Shown: in pieces, positions 27,430-27,615 of the stretch
How positions within the stretch are numbered: the first letter of the stretch is position 1
Layout of the letters: each line of letters starts with the position of its first letter
Source: Candidatus Latescibacterota bacterium
GTDB lineage: Bacteria; Latescibacterota; UBA2968
DNA length: 64,000 nt
NCBI GenBank assembly: GCA_965204745.1
Contig: OZ242010.1
Location: 4,608,001-4,672,000 of the forward strand
Reading direction: 5' to 3'
Notes under the pieces: model-generated
Told to the model about the DNA's origin: nothing
Database searches by the model: none
The model's input: the letters and a program-made list of their open reading frames with translations, nothing else
Position numbers and translations under genes: made by a program

Positions 27430-27615
27430 ACGCCAAGTCTACCGGTCTTGTATATGCAGCCTCAAGGGACTTAGATACTCTTCGGCATAGACCCGGCGGT
27501 CGGGGGGCCTATCTTACCTACAAGGTCATCGCCTTCAAGAGGGGCCGGCCTTCCCCGAGCCGGGCATCAAGATGGCTTATCTCGATACGAGGGCGCAACT
27601 CCTAATTAACCCTTA
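27430..27615 (-). ncRNA. Bridge RNA with target-binding and donor-binding loops
   Basis: Stems 27492-27509/27547-27564 and 27437-27444/27483-27492 enclose guides at 27536-44 and 27512-19 (target) and 27473-81 and 27446-53 (donor); RNA ends approximate. Confidence 0.85.

What the first reader, a model, noticed from the sequence alone, without database searches (positions are those of the whole stretch)
27430..27615. Fully readable bispecific bridge RNA of an IS110 recombinase
Seen: on the minus (transposase) strand the non-coding left end folds into two large internal loops. The target loop has outer stem 27492-27509/27547-27564 and central hairpin AAGG/CCTT (27522-35). Its guides are LTG CCCCUCUUG (27544-36), identical to the reconstructed target top strand atCCCCT-CT-TGcctc, and RTG AGGUAAGA (27519-12), complementary to TCTTGCCT with one G:U. 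The donor loop has stem 27437-44/27483-92. Its guides are LDG AGAGUAUCU (27481-73) and RDG AUACAAGA (27453-46), which match the circle junction AGAGTAT-CT-TGTAT exactly. Established: this is the IS621 bridge-RNA architecture (DEDD+Ser recombinase, CT core). Inference: an intact natural programmable recombinase ortholog with a target specificity that may be undescribed.
Basis: partly seen in the sequence, partly recalled or inferred. Interest (0 to 1): 0.92.

Follow-up and report, generated by a model that had tools for sequence, protein, structure and literature searches.

The report
Bridge RNA of a multicopy IS110 element
This is a genuine bridge-RNA gene at the left end of an intact IS110-family insertion sequence that has spread to 52 copies in one Latescibacterota genome by inserting into seven-base tandem repeats, so it is a clean new example of a system known since 2024, not a new kind of system.

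Summary
Window 27628-26339 (minus strand) is a 1290-bp IS110 element. It has a 335-aa DEDD+Ser recombinase and a left end that forms two internal-loop modules.

The genome holds 52 full-length copies with identical boundaries. 42 of 52 sit in flanks that fit their own guides with no non-wobble mismatch; a 43rd is scored wrongly by a script offset. Variant copies and relatives in two other genomes carry different target-loop guides that match their own, different flanks, while the donor guides and the ends stay constant.

A covariance model built from this RNA finds a full-length match just upstream of the recombinase gene in 22 of 28 distant loci. There, 19 of 30 base pairs show compensatory changes.

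- The left target guide sits one base out of the family's usual register.

No RNA or circle-junction data exist. Bridge RNAs were described in 2024 and thousands are predicted, so this is a new member of a known kind. It is notable for its copy number, its heptamer-repeat target and its natural guide diversification. Interest is moderate.

The parts
26339..27628 (-). Whole IS110-family element, 1290 bp, TGTAT...AGAGTAT-CT. No inverted repeats; the CT core is present at both junctions.
   Evidence: All 52 full-length genomic copies align over 1-1290 with the same ends. The core is fixed as CT by intersecting the junction overlaps of three lineages.
27432..27615 (-). Predicted bridge RNA, about 180 nt. 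The start is inferred from the junction promoter; the end is the last pair of the donor-loop stem.
   Evidence: Neither end has been mapped: no RNA data.
27621..27626 (-). -10 hexamer TATCTT in the left end, half of a promoter that exists only across the RE-LE circle junction.
   Evidence: Best sigma-70-like match within +/-45 nt of the computed junction: TTGACC-17-TATCTT, 9 of 12. The hexamers are kept in all 52 copies, with spacer 17 or 18, and in the G016 and G018 relatives. No comparable promoter was found in the integrated state.
26354..26359 (-). -35 hexamer TTGACC in the right end, overlapping the recombinase stop codon.
27564..27588 (-). 5' stem-loop (10-bp stem, loop AAGCC), predicted from this sequence only.
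   Evidence: Present in the MFE fold. Absent from the consensus fold of the 17 relatives, so it is weak.
27547..27557 (-). Target-binding loop, 5' arm of the stem: CGGGG-AA-GGCC with two bulged A.
   Evidence: Pairs with 27509-27501. 97.9% of cells pair in-clade. In distant relatives 96% pair, and 4 of 9 pairs show compensatory changes.
27536..27544 (-). Left target guide CCCCUCUUG. CCCCU matches target P3-P7, CU matches the core, and UG matches P10-P11.
   Evidence: Identical to the rebuilt target. Covaries with the flanks in subfamily C, variant v1, G016 and G018.
27522..27535 (-). Central hairpin of the target loop: AAGG-CGAUGA-CCUU.
   Evidence: 100% paired. 3 of 4 pairs show compensatory changes in distant relatives.
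27511..27519 (-). Right target guide AGGUAAG (27519-27513; pairs with CT-TRCCT on the top strand), followed by handshake bases AU (27512-27511), which are complementary to donor positions 6-7 (AT).
   Evidence: Handshake concept and the wild-type A81/U82 of IS621 from PMC11208158.
27501..27509 (-). Target-binding loop, 3' arm of the stem: GGCCCCCCG.
27483..27497 (-). Donor-binding loop, 5' arm of the stem: GCCG GGUC (UA) UGCCG. The outer 8 bp are clade-specific.
   Evidence: 96.2% paired in-clade, with GC<->AU and GU<->UA double changes. The inner 9 bp covary in distant relatives; the outermost pairs do not.
27473..27481 (-). Left donor guide AGAGUAUCU, identical to the last 9 bases of the element.
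   Evidence: Invariant in 16 of 17 aligned relatives.
27458..27471 (-). Central hairpin of the donor loop: AGUC-CCUUGA-GGCU.
   Evidence: 100% paired; 2 of 4 pairs covary in distant relatives.
27445..27455 (-). Right donor guide AU-AUACAAG (pairs with CT-TGTAT), followed by handshake bases AC. The A is complementary to target position 7 (T).
   Evidence: The first handshake base is G in G016, where target position 7 is C.
27432..27444 (-). Donor-binding loop, 3' arm of the stem: CGGUA GACU UGGC.
26356..27363 (-). Recombinase gene, 335 aa, with an AGGAGG ribosome-binding site upstream. It has the DEDD RuvC-like domain and the Tnp domain with S248.
   Evidence: 51 of 52 copies keep an ORF of at least 330 aa.
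27629..27637 (-). Left half of the target plus core at this copy: ATCCCCT-CT.
26271..26338 (-). Right half of the target (TGCCTCT) and the heptamer tandem array it belongs to, with units such as CCTCTTG, CCTCTTA and CGTCTCC.
   Evidence: 42 of 52 copies have a CT-rich period-7 array within 30 bp of one end.

Best explanation
Window 27628-26339 (minus strand) is an intact, recently active IS110-family element.

Proposed mechanism:
- After excision as a circle, the right and left ends join. This creates a promoter (TTGACC in the right end, 17 nt, TATCTT in the left end) that transcribes a bridge RNA of about 180 nt from the left end.
- The donor-binding loop of that RNA pairs with the circle junction AGAGTAT-CT-TGTAT.
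- The target-binding loop pairs with CCCCT-CT-TRCCT, a word that recurs in the host's CT-rich heptamer tandem repeats.
- The DEDD+Ser recombinase, bound to both loops, exchanges strands at the CT core and inserts the element.

Shown here:
- The boundaries, and the match of the guides to the flanks in most copies.
- Covariation of the target guides with the flanks across lineages.
- Conservation and covariation of the RNA stems.
- Intact catalytic residues.
- The junction promoter, at the level of sequence.

Inferred from IS621 and its relatives:
- Transcription of the RNA, and circle formation.
- The strand-exchange chemistry.
- That the guides can be reprogrammed.
For: **Family membership**
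- Pfam DEDD_Tnp_IS110 (4.6e-23) and Transposase_20 (6.6e-20).
- NCBIfam NF033542 at 211.9 bits against a cut-off of 140.
- Aligns with solved ISCro4 and IS621, with D12/E60/D103/D106/S248 conserved.

**Copies and activity**
- 52 full-length copies share identical ends.
- There are 15 distinct sequences; 30 copies are identical to one another, and another 8 are identical to one another.
- 51 of 52 copies have an intact ORF.

**Fit of each copy's own guides to its own flanks, 14 positions, wobble allowed**
- 42 of 52 copies have no mismatch. One further copy, at G000 5200241, is scored as mismatched only because of a 1-nt offset at its altered first bases (my reading).

**Covariation of guides with flanks**
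- Subfamily C has LTG CGCCU and RTG AAGUAAG, and sits in CGCCT-CT-TACTT sites (3 of its 5 copies fit fully; the other 2 carry a wobble or one mismatch).
- Single-copy variant v1 has three guide changes (UCCCU, U>C after the core, AGGUGAG). All three match its own site TCCCT-CT-CACCT.
- G016 relatives have AGAAAAG with CT-TTTCT flanks.
- G018 relatives have CUCGCCU-CU with CTCGCCT-CT flanks.
- In the cross-lineage matrix the diagonal is 0.34, 0, 0.40 and 1.00 for A/B, v1, C and G016, and 2.22 for G018 (which includes 2 unavoidable mismatches from its shorter RTG). Most off-diagonal cells are 2.0 to 5.8, but seven are 1.2 or lower.
- The donor guides and both ends are constant across all of these lineages.

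**RNA structure**
- The unconstrained consensus fold recovers both loop modules.
- Covariance model R1 gives a full-length hit in 22 of 28 distant loci (E 2e-18 to 1e-9), always ending 46 to 96 nt upstream of the recombinase ORF.
- On that alignment 93.4% of cells pair, against at most 45% when the partners are slid. 19 of 30 pairs have compensatory changes, and 0 of 500 shuffles reach this.

**Blind check in distant relatives**
- Ends predicted from the donor guides expose flanks that match the target guides (read by eye).
- In the gammaproteobacterial element, 4 of 6 loci have TTAAAC or TTTAAC before CT, against LTG UUUAAAC. Also 4 of 6 right flanks begin AAATT, against RTG AAUUU.
- In L097, AACGG matches CCGUU; in L098, TCAGG matches CCUGA; in L109, ACGCG matches CGCGU.

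**Promoter**
- The junction promoter scores 9 of 12 and is conserved.
Against: - There is no RNA evidence: no RNA run is listed for this sequence, and all runs that were laid are contigs.
- No circle-junction word of 18 to 26 nt occurs in the genome.
- The whole left end folds no better than shuffles (z = -0.96). The unconstrained single-sequence fold pairs part of the LTG with part of the RTG.
- 9 of 52 copies have flanks that do not fully fit. Four have 2 LTG mismatches, two have 3 RTG mismatches, two have 1 RTG mismatch, and v3 has 3 in all.
- v1 carries an LDG change that its right end does not share.
- The CU of the LTG lies one base 5' of its position in 17 distinct distant relatives and in G018 (G036 keeps that canonical loop layout but reads AU at the core position). 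IS621-derived geometry may therefore not transfer exactly.
- The alignment used was fitted to the model, which favours the modelled structure.
Confidence: 0.93

Rival explanations
1. The left end is only a structured 5' leader, or a set of DNA-level recombinase binding sites (subterminal copies of the ends). On this view the match to the target is a captured piece of heptamer repeat, and no guide RNA is involved.
For: - The LDG and RDG words are also internal DNA copies of the element's ends.
- The target word is a common genomic repeat, with 70 free copies.
- No RNA data exist.
- The overall fold energy is unremarkable.
Against: - Target-loop bases change together with the flanks in five lineages, while the stems are kept by compensatory changes.
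- The guides sit at fixed places in a structure conserved from Latescibacterota to Gammaproteobacteria, Gemmatimonadota and others.
- The RTG is complementary to the target and the LTG is identical to it, as expected for RNA pairing to opposite strands (PMC11208160).
Confidence: 0.02
2. It is a real bridge-RNA element, but it is effectively frozen. The copies come from a past burst, and this copy no longer moves, for example because the shifted LTG register or the short 7-bp left pairing makes it inefficient.
For: - No circle-junction or tandem-dimer word occurs in the assembly.
- No empty-site joint was seen in contigs of 4 runs.
- The LTG pairs with only P3-P9 (plus P10-11), and in a non-canonical register.
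Against: - 8 copies are 100% identical to the window copy, and 30 copies of the sister subfamily are identical to each other.
- 51 of 52 ORFs are intact.
- These facts point to very recent transposition in the shifted register itself.
- 70 cognate sites remain free.
Confidence: 0.05

Closest known systems
IS621 of Escherichia coli (bridge recombinase and bridge RNA; structures 8wt6 and related entries)
   Same: - Same two protein domains and catalytic D, E, D, D and S-G residues.
- The RNA is encoded in the left end, with a target loop and then a donor loop, each built as stem, left guide, hairpin and right guide.
- The left guides equal the top strand and the right guides are complementary to it.
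- CT core.
- The handshake bases after the RTG are AU, as in wild-type IS621, A81/U82.
- The promoter is split across the circle junction.
- RNA length is about 180 nt, against 177 nt.
   Different: - Protein similarity is remote (E 1.9e-36).
- The 5' strand of the target loop is 11 nt, against 13 nt in IS621 (3-nt linker, 9-nt LTG, 1-nt linker).
- Here the LTG pairs with P3-P9, possibly to P11, instead of P1-P9.
- The RTG is naturally 7 nt, against 4 nt in IS621.
- The target is a heptamer tandem repeat; IS621 targets REP elements.
- The host is an uncultured Latescibacterota genome.
- Activity is untested.
ISCro4 transposase (structure 9t56)
   Same: It is the best solved match to the protein (E 7.9e-41, residues 7-332 aligned to 9-329), with the same catalytic columns.
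   Different: It is still a distant relative.
Sister elements in related Latescibacterota genomes (G016 at 79-83% aa identity, G018 at 76-77%, G036 at 54%; named MAG records)
   Same: - End-to-end DNA alignment for G016 and G018.
- The same donor ends and the same donor guides, except one RDG base (G for U, read here as part of a 2-nt bulge).
   Different: - The target guides and targets differ. G016 uses CCC-CT-TTTCT sites, not clearly inside the heptamer arrays. G018 uses CTCGCCT-CT-CCCGTCT in heptamer arrays, with the LTG in the canonical register.
- The element was found in only 2 of the 20 other same-genus genomes searched.

Membership tests
IS110 family, bridge-RNA (IS621-like, left-end RNA) group | N-terminal RuvC-like DEDD domain (PF01548) | tested here: met
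   PF01548 at 82.2 bits against a cut-off of 29. D12, E60, D103 and D106 align with the IS621 DEDD columns (residue roles).
IS110 family, bridge-RNA (IS621-like, left-end RNA) group | C-terminal Tnp domain (PF02371) with the catalytic serine | tested here: met
   PF02371 at 71.7 bits against a cut-off of 21.3. S248-G249 is invariant in the 4 aligned relatives and aligns with the S-G of IS621.
IS110 family, bridge-RNA (IS621-like, left-end RNA) group | Passes NCBI's curated model for 'IS110 family RNA-guided transposase' | tested here: met
   NF033542 at 211.9 bits against a cut-off of 140.
IS110 family, bridge-RNA (IS621-like, left-end RNA) group | No terminal inverted repeats; insertion at a specific site with a 2-nt core shared by both junctions | tested here: met
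   52 copies have the same ends, with CT at both junctions. The core was placed by intersecting the overlaps of G000, G016 and G018.
IS110 family, bridge-RNA (IS621-like, left-end RNA) group | Non-coding RNA in the left end with two stem / internal loop / hairpin modules | tested here: met
   Consensus fold. 97.7% of cells pair in-clade. In 17 distinct distant relatives 93.4% pair, with 19 of 30 pairs compensatory.
IS110 family, bridge-RNA (IS621-like, left-end RNA) group | First loop: left guide identical to, and right guide complementary to, the target top strand, covarying with the target | tested here: met
   Met in a register shifted by 1 nt relative to the distant relatives.
IS110 family, bridge-RNA (IS621-like, left-end RNA) group | Second loop: guides match the RE-LE circle junction | tested here: met
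   The LDG matches 9 of 9 bases, and the RDG matches 7 of 7 plus one handshake base.
IS110 family, bridge-RNA (IS621-like, left-end RNA) group | Promoter reconstituted at the circle junction | tested here: met
   TTGACC-17-TATCTT spans the computed junction and is conserved. This is sequence evidence only.
IS110 family, bridge-RNA (IS621-like, left-end RNA) group | The RNA is made, binds the recombinase and directs recombination | not testable with these tools
   No RNA run is listed, and contigs cannot show transcripts.
Rfam families (any curated RNA family) | Match to a curated covariance model | tested here: not met
   Only five chance-level hits were found (E 2.2 to 7.3, all far below the gathering scores) in 26000-28000. 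The call lists no bridge-RNA family among its hits.

The most novel reading that the evidence does not exclude
One genome holds a natural retargeting series. Co-resident subfamilies share the same ends, donor loop and recombinase (84-100% identity), but their target loops have drifted by one to three bases. Each variant has then inserted into the heptamer-repeat variant that fits it: CCCCT-CT-TRCCT, CGCCT-CT-TACTT or TCCCT-CT-CACCT.

The whole clade also reads its left target guide one base out of the family's usual register, apparently extended past the core to P10-P11. If both points hold, the geometry of the target loop is more plastic than the IS621 structures suggest. The host's tandem heptamers would then act as an evolving landing pad that lets a bridge-RNA element reach more than 50 copies.
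Probability: 0.5. Interest if true: 0.55.

Novelty: new member of a known kind. Interest (0 to 1): 0.42.

Why it matters
- It gives a fully annotated bridge recombinase and bridge RNA pair from an uncultured phylum, with strong signs of recent activity: 38 copies fall in two sets of identical sequence. High copy number is a criterion that others have used to choose orthologues for study (bioRxiv 10.1101/2025.10.25.684509, passage read).
- The co-resident guide variants and the shifted LTG register are a ready-made natural data set on how target loops evolve and how much register slack the enzyme tolerates.
- It adds heptamer tandem repeats to the known kinds of IS110 landing sites such as REP elements.
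- It does not change the understanding of the mechanism.

Tried and rejected
**Searches that gave nothing useful**
- Rfam scan of 26000-28000 gave only chance-level hits.
- The promoter scan of the integrated locus found no promoter in front of the RNA. The promoter appears only across the computed junction.
- No RNA holder is listed for the element.
- Laying contigs of four runs from four studies showed:
  - word depth over the element one to two orders of magnitude above the flanks, with contigs breaking at its ends, as expected for a repeat;
  - no empty-site joint and no circle joint;
  - one joint (26359 to 27498) in a single contig with a 21-nt side, which I disregard.
- No circle-junction word of 18 to 26 nt occurs in the genome.

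**Structures tested and set aside**
Both have compensatory changes. Neither extension is kept in distant relatives (by eye). I leave this open and report only the shared core stems as supported.
- The 5' stem-loop is not conserved.
- I considered the canonical register for the LTG and rejected it. In that register subfamily C and G016 copy L044 fit poorly, while the shifted register gives 7 to 8 contiguous Watson-Crick pairs.
- I considered TT as the core. I rejected it because the G018 junction overlap allows only TC or CT, the G016 overlap allows only CT or TT, and the RTG, LDG and RDG all place CT at the family's usual position.

**Steps that failed or were dropped**
- My first regex count of heptamer arrays (second half) used a poor unit definition and is discarded. 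TRF replaced it.
- A search for the right end of the G036 element found nothing, so its apparent AT core is only noted.
- Literature searches found no paper with IS110 plus heptanucleotide and none with Latescibacter plus IS110. Of 5 papers with bridge RNA, tandem repeat, target site and IS110, I opened one, and it uses 'tandem repeat' for cargo duplications.
- Supplementary tables of IS110 orthologues were closed, so I cannot say whether this element is already on such a list.
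Full report
**What is there.**
- On the minus strand, window 27363-26356 encodes a 335-aa protein.
- It has Pfam DEDD_Tnp_IS110 and Transposase_20 domains.
- It passes NCBIfam NF033542, 'IS110 family RNA-guided transposase' (211.9 bits, cut-off 140).
- It aligns over nearly its full length with the solved ISCro4 and IS621 recombinases (E 7.9e-41 and 1.9e-36).
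- D12, E60, D103, D106 and S248-G249 fall in the columns of the IS621 catalytic residues. Their roles are taken from PMC11208158 (passages read).
- These residues are invariant in relatives at 83, 77 and 54% identity.

**Boundaries and copies.**
- A BLAST search of the element against the window's own genome (5.48 Mb, one contig, 56.5% G+C) gave 72 matches. 52 of them are full length and align over 1-1290.
- By identity to the window copy: 8 are at 100%, 39 at 96.0-97.0% and 5 at 87.9-89.3%.
- There are 15 distinct sequences. One is present 30 times and one 8 times.
- 51 of 52 copies keep an ORF of at least 330 aa. Together the copies make up 1.23% of the genome.
- Every copy starts TGTAT (one has an altered second or third base) and ends AGAGTAT-CT. 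The left flank also ends in CT.
- The overlap between the two junctions is TCTT(G) here, TCT in G018 and CTT in G016. With a common donor, the shared core is therefore CT.
- About 15 degraded fragments also exist.

**The guides.**
- The LTG CCCCUCUUG equals the rebuilt target CCCCT-CT-TG.
- The RTG AGGUAAG pairs with CT-TGCCT, with one U:G. In 25 of the other copies the site is TACCT and the pairing is perfect.
- The LDG AGAGUAUCU equals the last nine bases of the element.
- The RDG AUACAAG pairs with CT-TGTAT.
- The base after each right guide (A in both) belongs to what the IS621 structure paper calls handshake guides, not to the guide itself. Here the AU after the RTG is complementary to donor positions 6-7, and the A after the RDG is complementary to target position 7.
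- In 5000 random left ends, none reproduced all four matches.

**Do the guides track the targets?** This is the main test, and it is passed.
- Scoring each copy's own guides on its own flanks (LTG on P3-P9, RTG on P8-P14, wobble allowed), 42 of 52 copies have no mismatch. A 43rd copy, at G000 5200241, is mis-scored by a 1-nt offset (my reading).
- The other nine are as follows. Four are in CTTACCT-CT-TACCTCT (2 LTG mismatches). Two are in CTCCCCT-CT-CCCGTCT (3 RTG mismatches). Two have one RTG mismatch. One is a hybrid copy (v3) with 3 mismatches.
- Subfamily C has two guide substitutions (LTG CGCCU, RTG AAGUAAG). Its five copies sit in C[G/A]CCT- or TACCT-CT-TACTT sites. One has TACCT on the right.
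- The single-copy variant v1 has three substitutions, all matching its own site TCCCT-CT-CACCT.
- In two related genomes the element aligns end to end at 79-83% DNA identity, with the same ends and the same donor guides apart from one RDG base (G for U). G016 has RTG AGAAAAG with CT-TTTCT flanks. G018 has LTG CUCGCCU-CU with CTCGCCT-CT flanks.
- A guide-by-flank matrix has its low values on the diagonal: 0.34, 0, 0.40, 1.00 and 2.22. Off-diagonal cells are mostly 2.0 to 5.8, although seven are 1.2 or lower. G018's value includes two positions beyond its shorter RTG. v1's guides also fit A/B sites through wobble (0.20).

**Is the RNA structure real?**
- The whole left end is not unusually stable (z = -0.96). 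The free single-sequence fold pairs LTG bases with RTG bases, which any bridge RNA can do because both read the core.
- With the guides kept single-stranded, the two-module fold appears. The unconstrained consensus fold of 17 sequences from six lineages recovers both modules.
- I built covariance model R1 from these sequences with a hand-checked structure of 30 pairs. I then searched 28 of the 66 loci that the search for related loci returned: all of L089-L114, plus L119 and L123.
- 22 loci gave full-length hits (E 2.3e-18 to 1.2e-9). All are on the coding strand and end 46-96 nt before the ORF. The hosts are labelled Latescibacterota, Gammaproteobacteria (several), Gemmatimonadota, Thermoanaerobaculia, Terriglobia and others.
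- The six loci without hits are truncated matches or matches at no more than 30% identity.
- On the resulting alignment (17 distinct rows) 93.4% of cells pair, against 29-45% for slid partners. 19 of 30 pairs have changes on both sides, and 0 of 500 shuffles reach this.
- That alignment was fitted to the model, which helps the modelled structure. The slid controls and the number of pair types still argue for a real structure.

**Blind check in distant relatives (read by eye).**
- I used only the donor guides to find the ends. The flanks found this way match the target guides.
- In the gammaproteobacterial element, 4 of 6 loci have TTAAAC or TTTAAC before CT, against LTG UUUAAAC. Also 4 of 6 right flanks begin AAATT, against RTG AAUUU.
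- L101 has TTCCGCC against UUCCGCC. L097 has AACGG against CCGUU. L098 has TCAGG against CCUGA. L109 has ACGCG against CGCGU.

- First, the stems.
- In-clade the donor extension fits better: the whole donor-loop stem as extended pairs in 96% of cells, against 86% and 75%. Both versions show compensatory changes, and neither is kept in distant relatives. The two may be alternative conformers.
- Second, the register. In 17 distinct distant relatives and in G018 the 11-nt 5' strand of the target loop reads G, seven guide bases, CU, then one base (G036 has the same layout but reads AU at the core position).
- In the window's clade and in G016 it reads GG, five bases, CU, UG, so the core-pairing CU is one base further 5'. 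Flank covariation supports this shifted reading, and v1's U>C after the core matches its site's P10.
- IS621 has a 13-nt strand with 3-nt and 1-nt linkers, so loop lengths vary within the family. A register shift between close relatives is still unexplained.

**Promoter and expression.**
- Across the computed RE-LE junction the best sigma-70-like match is TTGACC-17-TATCTT (9 of 12). The -35 overlaps the recombinase stop codon and the -10 lies at element positions 3-8.
- Both hexamers are kept in all 52 copies (spacer 17 or 18) and in G016. G018 has TTGAAC.
- No such promoter precedes the RNA in the integrated state. This mirrors what PMC11208160 reports for IS621 (passages read).
- Whether the RNA is made could not be tested.

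**Target biology.**
- TRF finds 1195 period-7 arrays in this genome, from several unrelated unit families. The CT-rich family forms 477 merged arrays, about 21 kb in all.
- 42 of 52 copies have such an array within 30 bp of an end.
- Free cognate sites remain: 70 CCCCTCTTRCCT, 37 CRCCTCTTACTT and 6 TCCCTCTCACCT.
- Among the 40 relatives searched, the element was found in 2 of 20 same-genus genomes and 1 of 16 genomes in the neighbouring family. This patchy pattern is typical of a mobile element.

**Comparison and novelty.**
- The element meets every sequence-level criterion of the IS621-like bridge-RNA group. Only RNA production and activity remain untested.
- Bridge RNAs were described in 2024, with thousands of predicted orthologues and a covariation analysis over 2,201 of them (PMC11208160). 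NCBI's naming model already calls such proteins RNA-guided transposases. This is therefore a new member of a known kind.
- What is less ordinary: the copy number, the heptamer-repeat landing site (no paper found with the searches), the co-resident guide variants that each fit their own sites, and the shifted LTG register.
- I score interest at 0.42, not 0.92.

Noticed in passing
whole genome G000 (for example window 26271-26338): The genome carries 1195 period-7 tandem arrays by TRF. They belong to several unrelated unit families (AACTGAC 199, ACCACTG 142, ACTACTG 113) besides the CT-rich family used by the IS. Their origin and function are unknown.
   Followed up: partly
G000:C1:602782-604074 (locus L129 holds its first 235 nt): Hybrid copy v3. 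It carries subfamily-C-like target guides (UGCCU / AAGUAAG), but it sits in a TCCCT-CT-CACCT site that fits variant v1's guides. It may be a recombinant or an off-target insertion.
   Followed up: partly
G000:C1:1297036-1298326 (locus L009): Variant v1 has a changed left donor guide (AGCGUAUCU), while its own right end is still AGAGTATCT. It is present as a single copy.
   Followed up: no
G000:C1:1121591-1124180: A subfamily-B copy and a subfamily-A copy lie head to tail, 7 nt (one heptamer) apart. The A copy's left target half is then TTACCT, which has 2 mismatches to its LTG.
   Followed up: no
loci L034, L038, L042 (genome G036): In a relative at 54% identity the LTG reads AU at the core position. 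2 of its 3 left junctions read AT instead of CT before TGTAT, hinting at a non-CT target core. Its right end was not located.
   Followed up: partly
window 27638-27644 (minus strand): The left flank of the window copy contains CTTGTAT, a look-alike of core plus right donor half, 9 nt outside the element. It could be chance or the trace of an older insertion.
   Followed up: no
G000:C1:921772-922155 and 2972661-2972844: Left-end-only fragments (element positions 1-380 and 1-183) retain all or most of the bridge-RNA region without a recombinase gene.
   Followed up: no
window 26270-27675 against its flanks: In contigs of four public runs from four studies (labelled sponge metagenome or coded organisms), summed word depth over the element is one to two orders of magnitude above the flanks, and contigs break at the element's ends. 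This is consistent with a high-copy repeat in those communities.
   Followed up: partly
locus L094 (Gammaproteobacteria MAG record), right end near 2745: The right end of this distant relative is followed directly by a TGTATCT word, a left-end-like remnant, instead of the usual AAATT flank.
   Followed up: no
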